Sequence record: MN445185.1
Length of the DNA: 64,000 bases
Direction: 5' to 3' (one strand)
Source: Escherichia phage vB_EcoM_EC001
A program made the translations under genes and the position numbers. The notes beneath the pieces were generated by a model. The model ran no database searches. It was given only the letters and a program-made list of their open reading frames with translations, and was not told the DNA's origin. Shown one piece after another: positions 3,681 through 52,738 of the stretch (the stretch's first letter is position 1; each line of letters starts with the position of its first letter).

Positions 3681-3715
3681 CCTGGTCTCCTTGTGAGACC
3701 AGGTCTCTTTATTTT
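3681..3715 (+). terminator. rho-independent terminator
   Basis: stem CCTGGTCTC/GAGACCAGG followed by TCTCTTTATTTT. Confidence 0.8.
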
Positions 3716-3717
3716 AG

Positions 3718-3820
3718 CCCTCTAAACGCACTCACAACCTTCTAAAGCCTCTCTAACGGTAGAACGACCCTCTAAAGTGATAAAAGCTCTCAAAACGCGT
3801 TTGAGAGCGTTATAGAGGGT
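3718..3820. repeat. iteron-like cluster: four direct copies of CYYTCTAAM plus a 9-bp inverted repeat GCTCTCAAA/TTTGAGAGC with 5-nt spacer
   Basis: copies at 3718, 3738, 3748, 3768; inverted repeat at 3786-3808; sits between terminator and promoter-like element. Confidence 0.55.
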
Positions 3821-3838
3821 ATACTCTGAATAAAAATA

Positions 3839-3867
3839 ATTTCAGATATATATTACCTAGGTGATAG
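3839..3867 (+). promoter_or_regulatory. conserved promoter-like element, variant A (ATTTCAGATATATATTACYTAGGTGA)
   Basis: one of three near-identical ~80-bp copies (also 32871, 52661) ending in a conserved ribosome-binding site and ATG. Confidence 0.55.
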
Positions 3868-3915
3868 AAGACAATCTATCAACTCAATCGACTATTAATC
3901 TAAAGGAGTATTGCC

Positions 3916-10666: not shown

Positions 10667-10694
10667 TTATAGATAGATATTATCTTAGGGAGAG
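10667..10694 (+). promoter_or_regulatory. conserved promoter-like element, variant B (ATAGATAGATATTATCTTAGGGAGA)
   Basis: shares core with 31176 copy; directly follows terminator. Confidence 0.5.
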
Positions 10695-28670: not shown

Positions 28671-29131
28671 TGAAGATTATTACCATAGTGGGGCCAGACA
28701 CGGCTAACGGCAGGAAATATTCCACAGATATCCTCGCGCTTTATAACGAGCTGGACAAAAGCGAAATAGAAAGCTATCGAAAAGAGACGGGTATTAATGT
28801 CCGTTTTACGCCGGCTAAATCGTTAGCCGAGCGCTTCCGGGGTCGTTTACTGGCGGTCGTGGACGACGGTGTCTTGTATGGCTTTGCGCAATACCGCACG
28901 ATGACTGAAGAGGGTGTGACGATGATGTCGGTATCCTCACTGGTCGTTAGCAGCAGCGCACGTGGTAAAGGTTACGGCACCGCGTTGATGGATGCGGTAA
29001 AGAAATCCGCAACGGAAAAAGGGTGTACAGTTGTTCACCTGTCCGTGAACGCCGGTAACGCTGCCGCGAAGTCGCTCTACGACAAAGCTGGCTTTAAGGT
29101 AGGTGCTTACCAGATGTATTGGAGGGTGTGA
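28670..29131 (+). CDS. GNAT-family N-acetyltransferase (tandem paralogue 1)
   Basis: motif A SSARGKGYGTALMDAV, motif B NAGNAAAKSLYDKAGF; N-terminus MKIITIVGPDTANGRKY parallels the next gene. Confidence 0.7.
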   Translation: MKIITIVGPDTANGRKYSTDILALYNELDKSEIESYRKETGINVRFTPAKSLAERFRGRLLAVVDDGVLYGFAQYRTMTEEGVTMMSVSSLVVSSSARGKGYGTALMDAVKKSATEKGCTVVHLSVNAGNAAAKSLYDKAGFKVGAYQMYWRV

Positions 29132-29595
29132 TGAAAATTGTTTTTGTCACCAAGCCCAACTCTCCGTATGGAAAGAAATACTACGCGGACTTGTTAGGAC
29201 TACACAACAAGTTATACGACGATCAGAAAATAAAACTTGCCGACTTAAACGGTCGTGAAGGGTTTAATCAAATCTCAAAACTGGAGGAGGTTTGGGGTGA
29301 AGGTACGCTGTGCGCTTGCGCCGTTGATGACCGTGGTGTGGCTGTTGGTTTCATCACCTTTGGCTACACCAAAAAGGGACAACGTTTCCTCTGGGTATAT
29401 AACTTTTTTGTAGATGAATCGGTTCGTTCACAAGGCGTTGGCCATGAACTGATCGAAGCCGTAGAGAACTATGGCAAATCAAAAGGCTGCGCATGGATGC
29501 AGCTTAACGTGCTCGGTAATAACGACCGTGCTATTGCGTTTTATGAACGTTTCGGATTCCGAACTGAATACCAGGATATGGTAAAGGAGCTTTAA
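29131..29595 (+). CDS. GNAT-family N-acetyltransferase (tandem paralogue 2)
   Basis: GGAGGG ribosome-binding site; motif A VRSQGVGHELIEAV, motif B NDRAIAFYERFGF; N-terminus MKIVFVTKPNSPYGKKY. Confidence 0.7.
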   Translation: MKIVFVTKPNSPYGKKYYADLLGLHNKLYDDQKIKLADLNGREGFNQISKLEEVWGEGTLCACAVDDRGVAVGFITFGYTKKGQRFLWVYNFFVDESVRSQGVGHELIEAVENYGKSKGCAWMQLNVLGNNDRAIAFYERFGFRTEYQDMVKEL

Positions 29596-29596
29596 C

Positions 29597-30205
29597 ATGG
29601 TGGCTGTCCGCAGCGTGCCACATCAGACTGGCTCGCGATATACTTTTTGTGTAAAGCGTTTCGGGGCAAGAAATCGCCCTGGTTGGAAGGTGGTACGTGC
29701 GATGGGACAGTTCTGGCAATTACCACCTGGCACGTTAAAATATTTTTCAGTAGACAGAATAACCCGGTTCTTAAACGCGGCTGACCCAAGTCAACGCTCC
29801 AGTTTTATGGCAGGGATCGTTTGTCGTCCCGATGGGAAAACACGCGATGCAACCACTCGTGGAATCTACTGGACAGGACAGAACGCGTTTCAGGTTGGCT
29901 TACCTTGCCTGAAGTGTGAAGTGACACCGTTTAATGGTCCCTACGCCGATGCGCACTTCACCGGTATCTTTGTGTCGTTCCCAGACGACCCGTCTTTAAA
30001 CTACTTTTTATCAGTGGACAAAGACGTCAGTATTGATACCTTTTACAAATACTTGTTGTTTTACAGCCGGTATATCCGCGTGACTCCTGTGCATGAAGAT
30101 TGGTATTATAAAAATCCCTTGAACTATGGGAGGGACAGGAGACTAGAAGGATGTTCTATCGAGAGCTTCAACTCTGTACCGCAGCGCTCCATGGCGCTAA
30201 TGTGA
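29597..30205 (+). CDS. hypothetical protein
   Basis: AAGGAG ribosome-binding site; 202 aa. Confidence 0.55.
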   Translation: MVAVRSVPHQTGSRYTFCVKRFGARNRPGWKVVRAMGQFWQLPPGTLKYFSVDRITRFLNAADPSQRSSFMAGIVCRPDGKTRDATTRGIYWTGQNAFQVGLPCLKCEVTPFNGPYADAHFTGIFVSFPDDPSLNYFLSVDKDVSIDTFYKYLLFYSRYIRVTPVHEDWYYKNPLNYGRDRRLEGCSIESFNSVPQRSMALM

Positions 30206-30522
30206 GCAAGAACGGGGACCTGGAAGACGTCGCGCAAGCCTTACGGGCTGTGTCGGAGGTTGACCAGGTCGACATCGACGCTAAGTATTTAGGCGGCGGT
30301 GTAAAGCGTATTCAGTTGACCGTGCGAGCCAAACATGGCAGCTGCTCGTTACATTTTCGAGTCAGTGCGGATTATTTCCTGGTACTGCGCTCCACATTCA
30401 GTCACGATGGTCGGACTCACCGGGTTCGGTGGATGCACGACATTACTAAATTTGGCTACCCGCTTGCAGAACAACGTAAAGTCGTACATGACTTTATGGC
30501 TGCAGTCGTTGCGGGGTTTTAA
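30151..30522 (+). CDS. hypothetical protein
   Basis: 123-aa ORF overlapping upstream gene by about 55 nt. Confidence 0.4.
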   Translation: MFYRELQLCTAALHGANVSKNGDLEDVAQALRAVSEVDQVDIDAKYLGGGVKRIQLTVRAKHGSCSLHFRVSADYFLVLRSTFSHDGRTHRVRWMHDITKFGYPLAEQRKVVHDFMAAVVAGF

Positions 30523-30534
30523 GGGGAGACTGTG

Positions 30535-31131
30535 ATGTCTGAGATGATTCTCGATTCGCTGTTTTTGATTACGGTTGCAAACATCAATAAAAACGGCAAT
30601 CTTCCAGAATACGTAGACATAAGTCGTCATGGCTTTAAGCGTCGTTATCAAATCGGTAAGGTACTAGAGATTGCCTGCTTAGTAACGAACATGCGTAGAC
30701 CGGTGGAAGGCTGTAGCGTTAAACATGCACAGATGATACTCGGGCGTGCTATTTCAGAAGTACGTCGTAAGCGTCGTCGTGCACCGTATCGCTTTTATCC
30801 TAACTCCACCAAACAGGTGGTCGGTGAGGGGGAAGGTGTGGTTGATTTGCGTGAGGCCAGTTGTAATGTAGGCGGTATTGCACGTGACTGGTTAATGAGC
30901 ATTATCAGTAAGCATCCACGTACACCTACGCCGCAAGAAGGACAGGCGGTACTCGCACTTATGCGTAAGACCCATTTGGTGATTACTGATACACCAAACC
31001 AGGCAGCACGAATGCAGCACTATTTGGCATGTCGTGGCTTCACCACACTTGCAGTACCTTCTGAATACACAGCTGATATTAAACTTCCGCCAGTCCCAGA
31101 TTGGTCTGAACCGACAGTTGATCATCAGTGA
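30535..31131 (+). CDS. hypothetical protein
   Basis: AAGGGGA ribosome-binding site; ATG at 30535. Confidence 0.55.
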   Translation: MSEMILDSLFLITVANINKNGNLPEYVDISRHGFKRRYQIGKVLEIACLVTNMRRPVEGCSVKHAQMILGRAISEVRRKRRRAPYRFYPNSTKQVVGEGEGVVDLREASCNVGGIARDWLMSIISKHPRTPTPQEGQAVLALMRKTHLVITDTPNQAARMQHYLACRGFTTLAVPSEYTADIKLPPVPDWSEPTVDHQ

Positions 31132-31136
31132 GTTAT

Positions 31137-31175
31137 ACCCACTCCTTCGGGAGTGGGTCGACTCTATTTTTTTTG
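31137..31175 (+). terminator. rho-independent terminator (UUCG loop)
   Basis: ACCCACTCC-TTCG-GGAGTGGGT then T-run. Confidence 0.85.
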
Positions 31176-31200
31176 GATAGATGTTATCTTAGGGAGACGT
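31176..31200 (+). promoter_or_regulatory. conserved promoter-like element, variant B
   Basis: GGATAGATGTTATCTTAGGGAGACG immediately after terminator. Confidence 0.5.
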
Positions 31201-31291
31201 GCAAAAATTACGTTTCATCCTTAGCATATGCTAGAAGCCGTTGTGAGTCGGTTAAAACTCACCAACTTAAACTTAAAAGCGAGTAAACAAA

Positions 31292-32056
31292 ATGTCAAAA
31301 CTCAATAAAGCAGCAACCAAAGAATGGCTTTCCGTACCTACCGCAGATGGTCAGTATCGCTACGTATTCACGTATGACGAAAATGACCTGACGGCAAAAG
31401 GTATTCCGCACATGTTAAGTCACAAACTGATTAACAGCGTGACCGGTGCCACCTTAGTAGGTTCCGGCGGAAGGACAATCTTTTGTGCCCCCAGTTGGGA
31501 TCAAACTGAACTGACCAAGAAAATGCTCGGTGAACTCCGGGCGGTTTCCGCACGTCTGTTCTTTAAGCTGATTGCCAGAAAACCGGCGCTATGGGATGCA
31601 TGGTCTCAACACAATCTCGAGGCATTGCGTGGGGAGTGTCTGAATTACGTATTGGTCGAAGAAGTGATTGATAACTTCTTCGCTAACGTGATGAAAACCG
31701 AACGACTGCGTAAGCCGAACACCGACGGTTATTCGTTTGTCTCCGTTAAGAGCAGCGAACTGATTCGGGGTGAGTTTGCAGGGCATGTCCTTTCGGTAAC
31801 TCGGAACCTGAGTTTCTTTGGCCAGCCTTTCAGTGAGCCAGTTGTTCAGGTAACTTATGATTTCCGTTTACCGTTTACTGTTCGGAATGAGTTTGACCCA
31901 GGTCAAGTTTCGTTGAAGTTTTTATATCCTCTCCAGTCATGGCCGTTATTGAAGAGGTTCTTAGCTGAGCCCCGTGTAGCTGCGGTGCTGCAAGCGTGGA
32001 TTGATTCATGGCCAGAAGGCATTGAGGAAAAATCGAAAACGCGAGTTGACTTCTAA
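31292..32056 (+). CDS. hypothetical protein
   Basis: 254-aa ORF. Confidence 0.55.
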   Translation: MSKLNKAATKEWLSVPTADGQYRYVFTYDENDLTAKGIPHMLSHKLINSVTGATLVGSGGRTIFCAPSWDQTELTKKMLGELRAVSARLFFKLIARKPALWDAWSQHNLEALRGECLNYVLVEEVIDNFFANVMKTERLRKPNTDGYSFVSVKSSELIRGEFAGHVLSVTRNLSFFGQPFSEPVVQVTYDFRLPFTVRNEFDPGQVSLKFLYPLQSWPLLKRFLAEPRVAAVLQAWIDSWPEGIEEKSKTRVDF

Positions 32057-32063
32057 GTAAGCT

Positions 32064-32098
32064 AGGCACTCTTCGGAGTGCCTATTATTTTTTTTCTT
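32064..32098 (+). terminator. rho-independent terminator (UUCG loop)
   Basis: AGGCACTC-TTCG-GAGTGCCT then TATTATTTTTTTT. Confidence 0.85.
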
Positions 32099-32159
32099 TA
32101 CGTATGCTCGCTATATTGTGACACCACTACAATTAATTAAACTTTTGGGGAAGAATAAA

Positions 32160-32783
32160 ATGTTAAACTCAGTGGCGCTGGATGGTCCAGATTTTTCTGG
32201 CAAATCAACACTCGCGAAAATGATTCAAGCGATGTTGCGCTCCGCTGGCGTTAATGTCATCATCGTCAATCACCCGACGAATACCACTGAAGCCGGTATT
32301 AGTGCACGTTCTCTGGTTATCCAGCACGCTTCTAACGAACGCATTGCTAAAGCGATGTGTCTGGATTTCCAATACACGATGGATTTCGTTGTACCAGAGC
32401 ACGATGTCGTTATTTTTGACCGTTTTTGTCAATCGACTATTGTCTACCAGGGCGTCGATGGTAAAGGGGAAGTTTTCCGTTCGCGGGTATTAGACCACAT
32501 TAACGCACCAAAGCTTTACGTGGCAACCGATGTATCTTACGAAACCGCCACAGAACGCTTTAAGAAGCGCGTAGAGGCACAAGGTAAGAACTGGGATGAT
32601 GAGGTACTGACAGCGAAGTATCTGCGCTCACAGACCGATTGGGACGCCTTACGCGACCATTACCGTTTTGCTTTCCACATCACCACAGATGGCGGCGATA
32701 AGTTCCCGCTGATGCGTGTTACGGCTGACGACGATATAGCGTTACAAGCCGCGCGTATCGTTGAACGTATTCTGGCAGGTTAG
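32160..32783 (+). CDS. tmk: thymidylate (dTMP) kinase-like nucleotide kinase
   Basis: P-loop LDGPDFSGKST; IFDRFCQSTIVYQG matches Tmk motif IGDRHDLSTQAYQG; start taken at ATG 32160 rather than upstream GTG. Confidence 0.65.
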   Translation: MLNSVALDGPDFSGKSTLAKMIQAMLRSAGVNVIIVNHPTNTTEAGISARSLVIQHASNERIAKAMCLDFQYTMDFVVPEHDVVIFDRFCQSTIVYQGVDGKGEVFRSRVLDHINAPKLYVATDVSYETATERFKKRVEAQGKNWDDEVLTAKYLRSQTDWDALRDHYRFAFHITTDGGDKFPLMRVTADDDIALQAARIVERILAG

Positions 32784-32789
32784 TTGTAC

Positions 32790-32828
32790 CCCTCTTACCT
32801 TCGGGTAAGAGGGTATTGTCTTTTTTTA
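32790..32828 (+). terminator. rho-independent terminator (UUCG loop)
   Basis: CCCCTCTTACC-TTCG-GGTAAGAGGG then T-run; same stem as 5775. Confidence 0.85.
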
Positions 32829-32870
32829 CAGATCAGAACAGTCTTATGCTTTTTGCTTCCACTCCACTAA

Positions 32871-32899
32871 ATTTCAGATATATATTACTTAGGTGAGAG
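32871..32899 (+). promoter_or_regulatory. conserved promoter-like element, variant A
   Basis: ATTTCAGATATATATTACTTAGGTGAGAG; conserved downstream AATCGACTATTAATCTAAAAGGAGTATT. Confidence 0.55.
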
Positions 32900-32947
32900 T
32901 TACTACTAAACTCTCTAATCGACTATTAATCTAAAAGGAGTATTCTA

Positions 32948-33313
32948 ATGCGTTTTAAACATCAAACCGTTGTGTTGGCAAAGAAAGCGTTTTTGGTTCG
33001 TCTTTCTTACATTATTACTCGTGTCACTGCGAAGGACGTTACGCAGAAAGACATTGCGTTATTAGTAGGCTGCTCACCGTCACAAATATCTGCGATTAAA
33101 AATGAACGTGAGAAGGCCGTGACTATCGAAACATTGATGCGGGTTGCTGATACACTGCGCCTGAATTACGAAATCGTCTACCGTTCCATCAACGGCAAAT
33201 GCCGCCATAGCTTTAAAATTGAATCATGCATCGATTACATGAACAACTGTCCTATCCGGGTACGAGAAACAGGACTTAAAGTCATGGCACGTAAACCTTC
33301 TGCAGTAATGTAG
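32948..33313 (+). CDS. helix-turn-helix (XRE/Cro-like) transcriptional regulator
   Basis: QKDIALLVGCSPSQISAIKNE ... TIETLMRVADTL matches helix-turn-helix pattern; first gene after promoter-like element. Confidence 0.5.
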   Translation: MRFKHQTVVLAKKAFLVRLSYIITRVTAKDVTQKDIALLVGCSPSQISAIKNEREKAVTIETLMRVADTLRLNYEIVYRSINGKCRHSFKIESCIDYMNNCPIRVRETGLKVMARKPSAVM

Positions 33314-33324
33314 GGAGCAAACGT

Positions 33325-33711
33325 ATGAATTGGTTTGTAAATGGTATCACCCGTCGCGTGATGACGGAAGAGGATGATCGATGTAAACATCTTAAAGTGG
33401 GCTCTATAGCCCCGCGCTATACGGCAGAGTGCGACCCATGGGGCCGCGAAACGTATTACATGTGCGAAGACTGCTGGGAAAAACTGCAGGCTGCAATTGC
33501 GGCGGAAGAAGTGGTCTGCGACGACTGCAAAGGTACCTTCCCGAAACGGGATACCGTTGAGTGGAAATGGTACGACTTTGACCCCAGTCAAGGGGATAAA
33601 GAACTCTGTATCTGTAATAACTGTGTGTCGTTACCGGTACATTTAAACCGTGTAGAGAATGACCGTCGGGCATTTGAACACGACTTTCCAGAAGCAACTT
33701 TCTGGGATTAA
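33325..33711 (+). CDS. Cys-rich zinc-finger protein
   Basis: multiple CxxC pairs (CEDCW, CDDCK, CICNNC). Confidence 0.55.
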   Translation: MNWFVNGITRRVMTEEDDRCKHLKVGSIAPRYTAECDPWGRETYYMCEDCWEKLQAAIAAEEVVCDDCKGTFPKRDTVEWKWYDFDPSQGDKELCICNNCVSLPVHLNRVENDRRAFEHDFPEATFWD

Positions 33712-34243
33712 CTAGTGTAAACCTTAAGGAGTATATCATGGCGAAGGCCCCTAAAACTGTAGCAAAAGATTCAACGGCAAGCACCGCGACTAAATCTGCA
33801 AAAACGTCTACTACAGAATTTCCACGTTCACCTACCATTCCTAAACCGGATGTAATTGTACCAATCAGTGAACGTCTGAAAACGATTCACATCGAACGTG
33901 AATTTCCGATTGACCTTGGTCAGGAAATCGTTGCGGTTAATCTTGGTAGTGATGTCCGCTTTACTATCTACAAGGGATTAACTAGTGTAAACCTTAAGGA
34001 GTATATCATGGCGAAGGCCCCTAAAACTGTAGCAAAAGATTCAACGGCAAGCACCGCGACTAAATCTGCAAAAACGTCTACTACAGAATTTCCACGTTCA
34101 CCTACCATTCCTAAACCGGATGTAATTGTACCAATCAGTGAACGTCTGAAAACGATTCACATCGAACGTGAATTTCCGATTGACCTTGGTCAGGAAATCG
34201 TTGCGGTTAATCTTGGTAGTGATGTCCGCTTTACTATCTACAA
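33704..34243 (+). repeat. perfect tandem direct duplication, 2 x 270 bp (33704-33973 and 33974-34243)
   Basis: both copies read base-by-base as identical; unit includes ribosome-binding site AAGGAG, ATG and first 79 codons. Confidence 0.9.
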
Positions 34244-34664
34244 AGGCGCGCATCTGAACAACATGGTGCTAACCCGCGGTGATGAAGTTATCGGTCTGTC
34301 TCGTTACGACACGCAAATCGAAAACATCTATCCGGTGTTTGCAGTAGCGATGTTGCGTTTGTTCATGCAGGATAAAGCCGACCTTTGTGGTCAGCTTGCG
34401 GGTATGGCGGATCGTGTTGGTCATATTCTGCCGACGCTGGTGAAACTGTACCCAGTTACGATTGACGTGGCGTTTACTACTGTAGACAACAACCACGGTT
34501 ATATCGTGCTGACCAAAGACGGTAAAGTTATCGCTGGCAATCTGACTGATAACGAAGTGCAGAAACATATGGACAAATTTGCGTTCATGGTGAATCGCTT
34601 AGCGCACGTCAGTGTCAAACATTCCGAAACTTGGACGGCGCTTGCCTCCAAACCGGAACTGTAA
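33738..34664 (+). CDS. hypothetical protein carrying in-frame duplicated N-terminal region (alternative start at second ATG, 34008, gives the unduplicated protein)
   Basis: 308-aa ORF; residues 1-79 repeated at 91-169, joined by translated former leader LTSVNLKEYI. Confidence 0.6.
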   Translation: MAKAPKTVAKDSTASTATKSAKTSTTEFPRSPTIPKPDVIVPISERLKTIHIEREFPIDLGQEIVAVNLGSDVRFTIYKGLTSVNLKEYIMAKAPKTVAKDSTASTATKSAKTSTTEFPRSPTIPKPDVIVPISERLKTIHIEREFPIDLGQEIVAVNLGSDVRFTIYKGAHLNNMVLTRGDEVIGLSRYDTQIENIYPVFAVAMLRLFMQDKADLCGQLAGMADRVGHILPTLVKLYPVTIDVAFTTVDNNHGYIVLTKDGKVIAGNLTDNEVQKHMDKFAFMVNRLAHVSVKHSETWTALASKPEL

Positions 34665-34667
34665 TCA

Positions 34668-34705
34668 TTAAGGGGTCTTCGGACCCCTTAATTTTTTGTC
34701 TTTTT
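34668..34705 (+). terminator. rho-independent terminator (UUCG loop)
   Basis: TTAAGGGGTC-TTCG-GACCCCTTAA then T-run. Confidence 0.85.
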
Positions 34706-34753
34706 ACGCATTATCCTCATGTTGTGACAGCAATACCTTTTGAGGGCATTACA

Positions 34754-35752
34754 ATGAAAACTGTGGCTAAATTGTTTCGCACCAGCATCCGCACTGCCGA
34801 GTTCCGAAATAACGTCGGTACCGATACTGTACGAGCACGCCGCCTAAAAGAGTTTCTAAAGGACGAGACTTATTCTGTTTACGTGGTGAAGAATAAAGAA
34901 ACCTGGGAGGGTTATTTAGTGGCCACCTATCGACACGGTGACCCTACACTAACCTGTCACTATTTTGAGGAGTTTGTACCTGGGGCGTTCGATAAAGTTG
35001 GTTTGGCCCTTGTGCTCGACCATACCGGATTCGAATATATGTCGTGCCCAGCACCTACTGACGATGTTGAACAAAAACTGGTCGAAAAAGGGTTTGTTCT
35101 TTCAGATATCGTTTGGGCATGTCATTCCAAACTGTTTGACAAAGTAATAACCGCACCGGAAATCAAGATTATTTCTGGTGATGCATACGCAGAACTTACC
35201 AAGGATGATAAAGACGTTATCCTGAATTTGATTAGCGGTGCAATTTGCGAAGAGCTAGAATACGATATGCGTGGCTACTATACGCACATTGGTCCGTTAG
35301 CAGAAACAGTAATAGCAAGAATTCAGCACGCTAATGTGGAGACTGCAATTTGGCGAGACGGTCATGATATCGTCGGTATTGCCCAGATGCGCTTGGTTAC
35401 ACCAGGCGTCGTTGAACTTTCTGGTTTAACCGTTGCACCCACGCACCGTAAACGTGGCATTGGTCGCCGGCTAATGGGCGCGCTATTCGATTTCGCACAA
35501 CGTCATTCCGACCAAGTCTATATTGAAACAGCTGCTGATAATAATCCAGCAAATCACCTGTATGGCAACATCTTACGTTGCAAGCAGGTACTGCGTACAC
35601 TAACGTTGAAACGCGATCCTGAACTTATTAGCTGGAAACGGGTGAATGGAAACCGCGCCGATCGTGTGCTGAAAGAAGAACCTAGCTTTCCGGTGGAGAC
35701 TACAACCAGGCTGACTATTAGTGATATGTTTCAATCTGGCATGAGAGGATGA
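34754..35752 (+). CDS. two-domain protein: N-terminal unknown domain fused to C-terminal GNAT acetyltransferase
   Basis: ATG 34754 with GAGGG upstream; C-terminal motif A VAPTHRKRGIGRRLMGALFDFA and motif B NNPANHLYGNI. Confidence 0.6.
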   Translation: MKTVAKLFRTSIRTAEFRNNVGTDTVRARRLKEFLKDETYSVYVVKNKETWEGYLVATYRHGDPTLTCHYFEEFVPGAFDKVGLALVLDHTGFEYMSCPAPTDDVEQKLVEKGFVLSDIVWACHSKLFDKVITAPEIKIISGDAYAELTKDDKDVILNLISGAICEELEYDMRGYYTHIGPLAETVIARIQHANVETAIWRDGHDIVGIAQMRLVTPGVVELSGLTVAPTHRKRGIGRRLMGALFDFAQRHSDQVYIETAADNNPANHLYGNILRCKQVLRTLTLKRDPELISWKRVNGNRADRVLKEEPSFPVETTTRLTISDMFQSGMRG

Positions 35753-52660: not shown

Positions 52661-52690
52661 TTTTCAGATATATATTACTTAGGTGAGAGT
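52661..52690 (+). promoter_or_regulatory. conserved promoter-like element, variant A
   Basis: TTTTCAGATATATATTACTTAGGTGAGAG with conserved leader AATCGACCATTATCTTAAGGAG. Confidence 0.55.
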
Positions 52691-52738
52691 TAACAATTAA
52701 CTCTTATCTAATCGACCATTATCTTAAGGAGTTTTAAC

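What the first reader, a model, noticed from the sequence alone, without database searches (positions are those of the whole stretch)
32871..34664. Promoter-proximal operon of HTH regulator, zinc-finger protein and the duplicated gene
A variant-A promoter-like element drives an XRE/Cro-like HTH protein (32948), a Cys-rich zinc-finger protein (33325) and the gene carrying the 270-bp duplication (33738), closed by a terminator at 34668. A small regulator first in a promoter-proximal operon is the arrangement seen for phage early regulatory modules and for autoregulated counter-defence operons.
Basis: inference. Interest (0 to 1): 0.35.

Follow-up and report, generated by a model that had tools for sequence, protein, structure and literature searches.

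The report
Early three-gene operon of jumbo phage
This is an ordinary early transcription unit of an SPN3US-like giant phage: the phage's own early promoter, then a DNA-binding regulator, a small two-zinc protein and a genus-specific gene, ending at a terminator. The 270-base duplication in the third gene has no independent support.

Summary
The window is an SPN3US-like (Seoulvirus) jumbo phage, and the region corresponds to SPN3US genes 0101-0103.

- **Layout:** an intrinsic terminator (32790-32813) closes the thymidylate kinase gene. A 25-nt element (32872-32896) follows, then three tightly spaced ORFs, then a second terminator (34667-34692).
- **Promoter:** the element matches the published early-promoter consensus of phiKZ-related phages (core TATATTAC). 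It recurs on the + strand only in this window, and in IMG/VR almost only in 200-250 kb contigs. No sigma-70-like site lies upstream.
- **Leader:** a 5' hairpin with covarying stems follows the promoter. It is generic to these early leaders, not an operon-specific operator.
- **Gene 1:** an XRE-type HTH protein under strong purifying selection. It sits directly behind this promoter in several phage genera.
- **Gene 2:** has invariant CxH/CxxC and CxxC/CxxC ligand sets. It belongs to an uncharacterised family with no solved structural analogue.
- **Gene 3:** a Seoulvirus-only ORFan.
- **Duplication:** the perfect 270-nt tandem copy includes the ribosome-binding site and start codon, so the normal 218-aa protein can still be made. 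Its only other carrier, phage Lh1B, is not an independent assembly.

"Early regulatory module" is supported. "Autoregulated counter-defence operon" is not. Interest is low.

The parts
32790..32813 (+). Intrinsic terminator closing the upstream thymidylate kinase gene (CCCTCTTACCTTCGGGTAAGAGGG followed by a T-run)
   Evidence: 10-bp stem with 6 GC pairs, a TTCG loop and a T-run. It is conserved in SPN3US, Lh1B, SPFM19, SaP7, Asesino and Machina.
32872..32896 (+).
   Evidence: Searches give the copy number, strand bias and chance expectation. One search finds it in 73 IMG/VR stretches, nearly all in 200-250 kb contigs. It matches the published consensus of N1M2, OBP, 201phi2-1 and phiKZ (TATATTAC) in PMC7058600 Table 2. 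The transcription start is inferred at about 32892-32894 from the 'centred at -10' rule in PMC7598289.
32895..32915 (+). 5' leader hairpin GAGAGTT-actacta-AACTCTC
   Evidence: predict the fold; 69% of 72 distinct promoter sites have a stem of at least 6 bp at this position, against 21% of shuffles and 8% of downstream controls. Stem sequences differ between copies and between orthologues.
32917..32940 (+). Conserved leader box AATCGACTATTA followed by the Shine-Dalgarno sequence AAGGAG, 7 nt before the ATG
   Evidence: 6 matches against 0.48 expected, including all three variant-A leaders. The box is nearly identical in Asesino although the HTH protein there is only 59% identical.
32948..33313 (+). 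Gene 1: XRE/Cro-type HTH protein, 121 aa (SPN3US_0101 orthologue)
   Evidence: Pfam HTH_3 31.4 bits against a cutoff of 23, HTH_26 27 bits against 22, and HTH_37 27 bits at its cutoff of 27. PHROG 7126 'HTH DNA binding protein', E = 6.6e-50. Against SPFM19 there are 23 synonymous and 0 nonsynonymous codon differences. Homologues occur in 82 jumbo-phage records.
33325..33711 (+). Gene 2: small two-zinc-site protein, 128 aa (SPN3US_0102 orthologue)
33704..34243 (+). Perfect tandem duplication, 2 x 270 nt (33704-33973 and 33974-34243). Each copy holds the end of gene 2, the ribosome-binding site, the ATG and codons 1-79 of gene 3.
   Evidence: One search shows 100% identity. The junction is absent from IMG/VR, from the other 32 matching phage records and from E. 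coli genomes. It is present in Lh1B only, and that record is not an independent assembly.
33738..34664 (+). Gene 3 as it reads here: a 308-aa ORF. The native 218-aa gene (SPN3US_0103 orthologue) starts at 34008 with its own ribosome-binding site.
   Evidence: All homologues are Seoulvirus-like, 80% identical or more among intact genes. PHROG 32024, unknown function. The AlphaFold2 model is unreliable (pLDDT 46), with residues 1-56 at pLDDT below 50.
34667..34692 (+). Intrinsic terminator closing the unit (ATTAAGGGGTCTTCGGACCCCTTAAT followed by TTTTTTGTCTT)
   Evidence: 11-bp stem, TTCG loop and a T-run.

Best explanation
The region is one early transcription unit of a nucleus-forming jumbo phage of the SPN3US group (Seoulvirus).

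Shown by the sequence: the unit has a terminator-promoter-leader-three genes-terminator layout.

Inferred from the family literature:
- After genome injection, the virion-packaged multisubunit RNA polymerase recognises the conserved AT-rich element at 32872-32896 and starts transcription about 32892-32894.
- The roughly 1.8-kb transcript opens with a short hairpin (32895-32915), which probably protects the 5' end. A strong ribosome-binding site follows.
- The transcript ends at the terminator at 34667-34692.

The three proteins:
1. A 121-aa XRE-type helix-turn-helix protein.
2. A 128-aa protein with two four-ligand zinc sites, from an uncharacterised jumbo-phage family.
3. A 218-aa genus-restricted protein of unknown fold.

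Proposed function. The most likely role of the HTH protein is to bind DNA outside the phage compartment, meaning the host chromosome. An unrelated XRE protein of Erwinia phage RAY was observed doing this. The HTH protein would then alter host transcription early in takeover, possibly together with the zinc protein, whose gene is its usual neighbour. This step is inference.

The duplication. The 270-nt tandem copy is a recent, non-conserved event or an assembly artefact. It leaves the native start of gene 3 intact and does not follow a domain boundary, so it is probably functionally neutral.
For: Identity of the phage:
- The best database matches are SPN3US-like phages, 92-98% identical in 22 records that cover the whole query.
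- Gene order matches SPN3US_0100-0104.

Unit boundaries:
- Terminators lie on both sides, and no sigma-70-like site lies on the + strand between 32416 and 35878.
- The gaps between genes are 11 and 26 nt, each with its own Shine-Dalgarno sequence.

Promoter class:
- The exact 25-mer occurs 3 times with 0 expected. The core occurs 7 times, + strand only, with 0.075 expected.
- In IMG/VR the degenerate motif is found in 73 stretches, several per genome and co-oriented, almost all in 200-250 kb contigs.
- It matches the published early-promoter consensus of related jumbo phages, including the phiKZ core TATATTAC (PMC7058600, Table 2). The predicted motif proved to be the early-promoter consensus in every phage of this group that has been profiled (PMC7598289).

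Leader hairpin.

Conservation of the arrangement:
- The HTH gene sits directly behind this promoter in Seoulvirus, Asesino, Machina, Aeromonas phage PS1 and three metagenomic jumbo contigs at 38-48% protein identity.
- The zinc-protein gene sits next to the HTH gene in phiEaH2, Caitlin, ChrisDB, Huxley, Machina, Parshik and pEa_SNUABM_8. This follows from the coordinates.

The genes are real and under selection: synonymous codon changes outnumber nonsynonymous ones in 15 of 16 comparisons.

Precedent for binding host DNA: RAY gp094, an XRE protein, localises on the host chromosome outside the phage nucleus (PMC10299810).
Against: - No expression data for SPN3US-like phages could be read. The proteomic time-course paper, PMC6384053, is not held. 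'Early' therefore rests on analogy with related phages.
- RAY gp094 is not an orthologue of this HTH protein. There is no in-register alignment, so the host-DNA role is only an analogy.
- No binding site was identified.
- The zinc protein also occurs in Vibrio, Ralstonia, Bacillus and Shewanella jumbo phages, where its examined neighbours match no HTH family. The HTH protein occurs in Aeromonas and Klebsiella phages that have no zinc-protein match. The pairing is therefore lineage-specific, not obligate.
- The energy of the hairpin alone is not unusual for two of the three variant-A leaders (z = 0.20 and -0.38). Its support comes from position and covariation.
Confidence: 0.72

Rival explanations
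1. Autoregulated anti-defence operon of the Aca-Acr type. The HTH protein represses its own promoter, and the two downstream genes are counter-defence effectors.
For: A small HTH gene is co-transcribed with two small genes of unknown function. The third gene is lineage-restricted and variable, as anti-defence genes often are. The HTH protein gives weak hits to antitoxin-type and defence-associated HTH models, all far below their thresholds.
Against: The promoter is the generic early promoter, shared by at least 7 other sites in the window, and is not sigma-70-like. No operon-specific palindrome is present. The only inverted repeat is the leader hairpin, which accompanies this promoter class across phages with differing sequences. 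In known Aca operons the HTH gene usually lies downstream of the acr gene (my own knowledge). The HTH protein is highly conserved across genera and strongly constrained, which is unlike an accessory arms-race regulator. Early transcription occurs inside a vesicle by injected polymerase (PMC13282480), away from newly made cytoplasmic proteins.
Confidence: 0.07
2. The HTH protein, alone or with the zinc protein, is a phage-directed temporal switch. It binds the partly palindromic early-promoter core (AGATA-N5-TATCT in the variant-B copies) on phage DNA and shuts off or redirects early transcription.
For: The HTH gene is the first gene behind an early promoter in many genera. The variant-B promoter core has 5-bp inverted arms. 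The HTH protein is among the most constrained genes in the region.
Against: The variant-A core in front of the HTH gene itself is a poor palindrome (3 of 5 arm positions). No evidence exists that the protein enters the vesicle or nucleus. The only comparable protein that has been localised stays on host DNA (PMC10299810). The phiKZ group lacks this HTH family yet has the same temporal programme.
Confidence: 0.12
3. The 270-nt duplication is an artefact of genome assembly, for example an untrimmed contig-end overlap that became internal when the sequence was rotated. Gene 3 is then the ordinary 218-aa gene.
For: - The two copies are 100% identical.
- The junction is absent from IMG/VR, from 32 other Seoulvirus-like records and from E. 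coli genomes.
- The only other carrier, Lh1B, is position-for-position collinear with the window over 49 kb: 1262 mismatched positions (214 of them N) and no indel.
- Inside the repeat, Lh1B differs from the window only within 111 nt of the left outer edge and 132 nt of the right outer edge. The central 296 nt are identical. This is the pattern expected if short reads from a single-copy genome were mapped onto a reference that carries the duplication.
- The repeat ends inside a predicted beta-sheet region, not at a domain boundary (low-confidence model).
Against: De novo assemblers rarely create internal tandem repeats. The repeat is in frame and creates no stop codon, so a real recent duplication would be viable. 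Without reads, neither possibility can be excluded.
Confidence: 0.45
4. The element is not an early promoter. It is a middle or constitutive promoter, or a recombination/regulatory cassette unrelated to virion-polymerase transcription.
For: No transcript data were available for this phage. Some copies precede replication-type genes, for example 10671 before the gene annotated 'polymerase'. A conserved block containing TATG, the phiKZ late-promoter core (PMC7598289), lies between the terminator and the element.
Against: The element matches the consensus that was validated as early in every profiled relative (PMC7598289, PMC7058600). In the layout read, no copy directly precedes a gene annotated as structural. 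It is restricted to jumbo-phage-sized contigs.
Confidence: 0.1

Closest known systems
Early promoters of phiKZ-related jumbo phages (phiKZ TATATTAC; OBP, N1M2 and 201phi2-1 consensus WWWWWTTTCARRYAKATATTATYWAAGTG), transcribed by the virion RNA polymerase
   Same: The core sequence is the same, including TATATTAC and the flanking TTTCA...GTGA. The element occurs many times per genome, co-oriented with the genes, at the head of gene clusters and directly after terminators (PMC7058600; PMC7598289).
   Different: Timing and polymerase dependence were not measured for this phage. The 5' hairpin that follows the motif was not mentioned in the passages I read.
SPN3US genes SPN3US_0101 (putative transcriptional regulator), 0102 and 0103 (hypothetical proteins)
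   Same: They are orthologues. Their proteins differ from those in the window at 0, 2 and 11 residues, and the gene order and flanking terminators are the same.
   Different: SPN3US and all other relatives examined except Lh1B have a single-copy 218-aa gene 0103. The window has the 270-nt tandem repeat.
Erwinia phage RAY gp094, an XRE-family regulator that coats host DNA during infection (PMC10299810)
   Same: It is a small XRE-type HTH protein encoded by a nucleus-forming jumbo phage and is an accessory (non-core) gene.
   Different: It is not homologous beyond the generic fold. It is not the first gene after a promoter. The localisation of the protein encoded here is unknown.
Aca-Acr autoregulated anti-CRISPR operons
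   Same: A small HTH gene is co-transcribed with small genes of unknown function.
   Different: The promoter is a shared phage-polymerase promoter, not a private sigma-70 promoter with an operator. The HTH gene comes first, not last. No anti-defence homology was found.
5'-terminal stabilising stem-loops of bacterial and phage mRNAs, for example the ompA leader (my own knowledge)
   Same: A short hairpin lies within a few nucleotides of the inferred 5' end. Its structure is conserved while its sequence varies.
   Different: The transcription start is inferred, not mapped. The hairpin could instead act at the DNA level in promoter recognition.

Membership tests
phiKZ-family early promoter (virion RNA polymerase) | Matches the published AT-rich consensus that contains TATATTAC | tested here: met
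   TTTCAGATATATATTACTTAGGTGA compared with the N1M2, OBP, 201phi2-1 and phiKZ consensus in PMC7058600 Table 2.
phiKZ-family early promoter (virion RNA polymerase) | Many copies per genome, intergenic, co-oriented with the downstream genes, at the start of gene clusters | tested here: met
   7 core matches, all on the + strand and intergenic, against 0.075 expected. Several co-oriented copies per genome in IMG/VR.
phiKZ-family early promoter (virion RNA polymerase) | Confined to jumbo phages that encode split multisubunit RNA polymerases | tested here: inconclusive
   Nearly all 73 IMG/VR stretches lie in 200-250 kb contigs. A few are in short contigs or one 1-Mb record. The polymerase genes of those contigs were not checked.
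phiKZ-family early promoter (virion RNA polymerase) | Transcription starts about 10 nt downstream, early in infection, independently of host polymerase and of new protein synthesis | not testable with these tools
   Requires RNA-seq or primer extension. The SPN3US time-course paper is not held.
XRE/Cro-type helix-turn-helix (Pfam HTH_3, clan HTH) | Profile score above the curated threshold | tested here: met
   HTH_3 31.4 bits against 23, HTH_26 27 bits against 22, HTH_37 27 bits at its cutoff of 27. The best PDB sequence hits are XRE-type proteins 3b7h and 2o38, at weak E-values of 0.035-0.055.
XRE/Cro-type helix-turn-helix (Pfam HTH_3, clan HTH) | Sequence-specific DNA binding | not testable with these tools
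   No candidate operator was found. Requires EMSA or ChIP.
Zinc ribbon / zinc finger | Conserved sets of four Cys/His ligands | tested here: met
   C20, H22, C47, C50 and C65, C68, C97, C100 are invariant in 10 sequences down to 32% identity.
Zinc ribbon / zinc finger | Membership of a described zinc-ribbon family by profile or by fold | tested here: not met
   [not shown]
Aca-type autoregulated anti-defence operon | Private promoter overlapped by an inverted-repeat operator | tested here: not met
   The promoter is generic. The only inverted repeat is the leader hairpin common to this promoter class. No sigma-70-like site is present.
Aca-type autoregulated anti-defence operon | Co-transcribed gene with a demonstrated or homology-supported anti-defence function | tested here: inconclusive
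   No hit in Pfam, NCBIfam, PADLOC or PHROGs beyond 'unknown function'. No dedicated anti-defence library was available.
Intrinsic (Rho-independent) terminator | GC-rich stem-loop followed by a T-run, placed after the last gene | tested here: met
   34667-34692 has an 11-bp stem, a TTCG loop and TTTTTTGTCTT.

The most novel reading that the evidence does not exclude
The HTH protein and its usual neighbour, the two-zinc protein, form a conserved early module of enterobacterial nucleus-forming phages. The module acts on phage DNA and switches off or hands over transcription from the virion-polymerase early promoters. The conserved hairpin after each promoter would be part of that recognition, not just an RNA stabiliser.
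Probability: 0.1. Interest if true: 0.6.

Novelty: new member of a known kind. Interest (0 to 1): 0.2.

Why it matters
It matters little as a discovery. The genes are already deposited, and annotated in much the same way, in dozens of SPN3US-like genomes. The promoter class is published for related phages.

Three points have modest value:
- The analysis gives a clean, bounded example of an early transcription unit in the SPN3US group.
- Such units appear to carry a conserved promoter-hairpin-leader cassette.
- An XRE regulator is consistently the first early gene across several genera, usually next to an uncharacterised two-zinc protein with no solved structural analogue. These two proteins are reasonable candidates for study of host takeover in nucleus-forming phages.

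There is also a practical caution. The 270-nt duplication and the Lh1B record should not be treated as independent biological evidence.

Tried and rejected
- **CTCTAAA repeats as an operator.** They are not in this region, and the heptamer is not enriched in the window.
- **Rfam.** No RNA family matches 32600-34900 at E <= 1.
- **Consensus folding of 11 leaders.** RNAalifold found no pairs because MAFFT could not put stems with variable loop lengths in register. I replaced this with per-sequence folding and a stem-length statistic.
- **Structure of gene 3.** The AlphaFold2 model has pLDDT 46 because the alignment is shallow and limited to one genus. I did not use it for fold search.
- **Sequence search of the PDB.** Nothing meaningful for genes 2 and 3.
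- **Fusion partners of the zinc domain.** The longer family members show no Pfam domain, apart from one GAAD hit just below threshold.
- **Metagenomic contexts.** Three distant zinc-protein homologues sat in uninformative contexts.
- **RAY gp094 as an orthologue.** Rejected.
- **Expression timing.** The SPN3US proteomic time-course paper is not held, and one literature search was too loosely worded to be useful.
- **Lh1B as independent confirmation of the duplication.** I assumed this at first and rejected it after the collinearity and N-content checks.
Full report
**What the window is.** The 2.1-kb region around the finding matches 39 phage records. All are SPN3US-like jumbo phages or Erwinia relatives. 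Identity is 92-98% in the 22 records that cover the whole query. Gene order corresponds to SPN3US_0100 (thymidylate kinase), 0101 (putative transcriptional regulator), 0102 and 0103 (hypothetical proteins) and 0104 (GNAT acetyltransferase). The window is therefore part of a Seoulvirus-type, nucleus-forming jumbo phage genome.

**Checking the observation.**
- A terminator (32790-32813) closes the thymidylate kinase gene.
- The sequence TTTCAGATATATATTACTTAGGTGA lies at 32872-32896.
- Three ORFs follow at 32948-33313, 33325-33711 and 33738-34664. The gaps between them are 11 and 26 nt, and each ORF has its own Shine-Dalgarno sequence.
- A strong terminator lies at 34667-34692.
- A perfect 270-nt tandem repeat occupies 33704-33973 and 33974-34243.
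- The sigma-70 scan finds no candidate on the + strand between 32416 and 35878.

**The promoter element.**
- The 25-mer, allowing 3 mismatches, occurs three times in the window (3840, 32872, 52662), all on the + strand, with none expected by chance.
- A relaxed core, AGATA[GT]AT[AG]T[TC]A, gives 7 sites, all on the + strand and all intergenic, against 0.075 expected. An eighth near-match lies at about 31179.
- A degenerate form of the motif scanned against IMG/VR hits 73 stretches. There are several per genome, they are co-oriented within a genome, and almost all lie in contigs of 200-250 kb.
- A published table gives predicted early promoters of related phages (PMC7058600, Table 2, read):
  - N1M2: TBYAWWWWWTTTCARRYAKATATTATYWAAGTGWA
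  - OBP: BSHAWWWWWTTTYARRYAKATATTATYWWADTG
  - 201phi2-1: …TATATTACDWHDGTG
  - phiKZ: TATATTAC
- The element here fits that consensus almost base for base.
- A review states that such a motif can be found upstream of presumed early operons in every RNA-polymerase-encoding jumbo phage. It also states that the predicted motif proved to be the early-promoter consensus in each phage profiled, and that it is centred near -10 (PMC7598289).

By this analogy the element is the early promoter used by the injected virion polymerase, and transcription would start near 32892-32894. I could not read expression data for SPN3US itself, so the timing is inferred.

**The leader.** Directly after the motif, each of the three variant-A leaders contains an inverted repeat with a different sequence:
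- GAGAGTT/AACTCTC at 32895-32915
- TGATAGA/TCTATCA after the copy at 3840
- a 14-bp stem after the copy at 52662

Among 72 distinct promoter sites from the window and IMG/VR, 69% have a stem of at least 6 bp starting at this position. The figure is 21% for shuffled sequences and 8% for a control segment 50 nt further downstream. There are 50 distinct 5' arms.

Leaders of HTH orthologues from Lh1B, SPFM19, Asesino, Machina and three metagenomic phages fold at the same position. Together with the window's own copies and one ChrisDB leader, the 11 leaders use six different stem sequences. The hairpin is therefore a general, structurally conserved feature of these early leaders.

It most plausibly stabilises the 5' end of the RNA. 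A role at the DNA level in promoter use cannot be excluded. It is not a private operator of this operon. A box AATCGACYATTA and the sequence AAGGAG follow the hairpin in all three variant-A leaders, and in Asesino.

**Gene 1.**
- The 121-aa protein passes the Pfam thresholds for HTH_3 and HTH_26 and scores at the HTH_37 cutoff. It belongs to PHROG 7126.
- It is 100% identical in most listed Salmonella relatives. Against SPFM19 there are 23 synonymous and no nonsynonymous codon changes.
- Homologues occur in 82 phage records, nearly all with genomes of about 200-270 kb: Salmonella, Erwinia, Klebsiella, Raoultella, Stenotrophomonas and Aeromonas phages. The phiKZ group has none.
- The gene is the first one behind the early-type promoter in Seoulvirus, Asesino (Erskinevirus), Machina and Aeromonas phage PS1. 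The same holds in three metagenomic jumbo contigs whose proteins are 38-48% identical. In ChrisDB one small ORF intervenes.

**Gene 2.**
- Ten homologues down to 32% identity keep C20, H22, C47, C50, C65, C68, C97, C100 and H106. This fits two four-ligand zinc sites.
- A profile search of 1.84 billion representative proteins finds 229 clusters at E <= 0.001. Most members are 120-170 aa. No Pfam family covers them.
- In phages, the gene lies directly after the HTH gene in Seoulvirus, phiEaH2, Caitlin, ChrisDB, Huxley, Machina, Parshik and pEa_SNUABM_8. In Asesino one gene separates them.
- It also occurs in Vibrio, Ralstonia, Bacillus and Shewanella jumbo phages, where its examined neighbours match no HTH family.

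**Gene 3 and the duplication.**
- The native 218-aa protein has homologues only in SPN3US-like sequences, 80% identical or more among intact genes. It matches no family. Its model is unreliable (pLDDT 46), and residues 1-56 score below 50.
- The N-terminal 45 or so residues vary. The rest is nearly invariant.
- The 270-nt repeat unit begins in the last codons of gene 2. It contains the ribosome-binding site, the ATG and codons 1-79 of gene 3.
- The junction reads through in frame as …YKGLTSVNLKEYIM…, giving a 308-aa ORF. The second copy keeps an intact ribosome-binding site and ATG at 34008.

**Whether the duplication is real.**
- The junction is absent from IMG/VR, from 32 of 33 matching phage records and from complete E. 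coli genomes.
- The one other carrier is Escherichia phage Lh1B. I first took this as independent confirmation, but it is not.
- The window aligns to Lh1B positions 64001-113000 base for base. There are 1262 mismatched positions, 214 of them N in the held copy of Lh1B, and no indel. One 4,041-nt block is completely identical.
- Inside the repeat, Lh1B differs from the window only within 111 nt of the left outer edge and 132 nt of the right outer edge. The central 296 nt that span the junction are identical.
- This pattern is what short reads from a single-copy genome would give if mapped onto a reference that carries the duplication.

The duplication is therefore either a very recent real event in one lineage or an assembly artefact. 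I put the artefact at about 45%. Either way it is not a conserved feature of the operon.

**How the unit most likely works.** The layout is shown by the sequence: terminator, early promoter, hairpin leader, three translated genes, terminator. Early transcription by the injected polymerase is inferred from the family literature.

The function of the HTH protein is inference only. In these phages early transcription is reported to occur in a vesicle, and later transcription in a protein-shelled nucleus (PMC13282480). A newly translated HTH protein would therefore first meet host DNA. The XRE protein gp094 of Erwinia phage RAY was seen on the host chromosome (PMC10299810). That protein is not an orthologue, so it serves only as a precedent.

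My preferred reading is an early host-directed DNA-binding protein, possibly working with the zinc protein. A less likely reading is a phage-directed switch acting on the early promoters.

**The autoregulated counter-defence idea.** I find no support for it. The promoter is shared rather than private, no specific operator is present, the site is not sigma-70-like, and none of the proteins shows defence-related homology.

**Verdict.** The unit is an ordinary, already-deposited part of SPN3US-like genomes that uses a published promoter class. The conserved leader hairpin, the constant promoter-proximal position of the HTH gene and the uncharacterised two-zinc family are minor additions. The duplication should be treated with caution.

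Noticed in passing
window 32895-32915, 3862-3881, 52680-52710; IMG/VR loci L013-L085: A short hairpin follows the early-promoter motif at a fixed position. Its stem sequence differs between copies and between phages: 69% of 72 sites have a stem of at least 6 bp, against 21% of shuffles and 8% of downstream controls. It looks like a conserved promoter-hairpin-leader cassette.
   Followed up: yes
whole window compared with Lh1B OK428535.1 64001-113000: The window is base-for-base collinear with Lh1B (window coordinate + 64000). There are 1262 mismatched positions, no indel, one 4,041-nt block (28700-32740) of complete identity, and 214 scattered N in the held copy of Lh1B. The two records do not look like independent assemblies.
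   Followed up: partly
window 10671, 10869, ~31179, 39723, 48122 (+): A second form of the same promoter (AGATAGATRTTATCT, with 5-bp inverted arms) is present. Two copies lie 198 nt apart at 10671 and 10869, after the major head protein gene and before the gene annotated 'polymerase' in SPN3US.
   Followed up: partly
window 3700-3835; L013, L020, L031, L048, L060: Upstream of the promoter at 3840 there are CTCTAAA-like repeats and a GCGTTWTAGAGGGT-like box. Similar boxes (gcgttttagagggt, gcgttatagagggt) precede promoters in metagenomic and Erwinia jumbo phages. This may be a conserved upstream element of one particular early unit.
   Followed up: no
window 32816-32871; Machina locus L010 about 2385-2445: The spacer between terminator and promoter holds a block (AGTCYTATGCTTT…TTCCAC) shared by Seoulvirus and Machina, although their HTH proteins are only 33% identical. 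The block is absent in Asesino. It contains TATG, the core of phiKZ late promoters, so it could be a second promoter.
   Followed up: no
[not shown]
   Followed up: partly
window-wide + strand terminators (e.g. 5777, 10621, 25842, 32063, 32790, 34667, 40084, 52605, 53497): Most of the predicted intrinsic terminators use a TTCG tetraloop.
   Followed up: no
phage records LR535901-LR535917 (SPFM1, 5-10, 12, 14, 15, 20): Several SPFM records align to this region only in 20-27 short pieces, and their proteins are fragmented. These records appear error-rich and distort homology tables.
   Followed up: no
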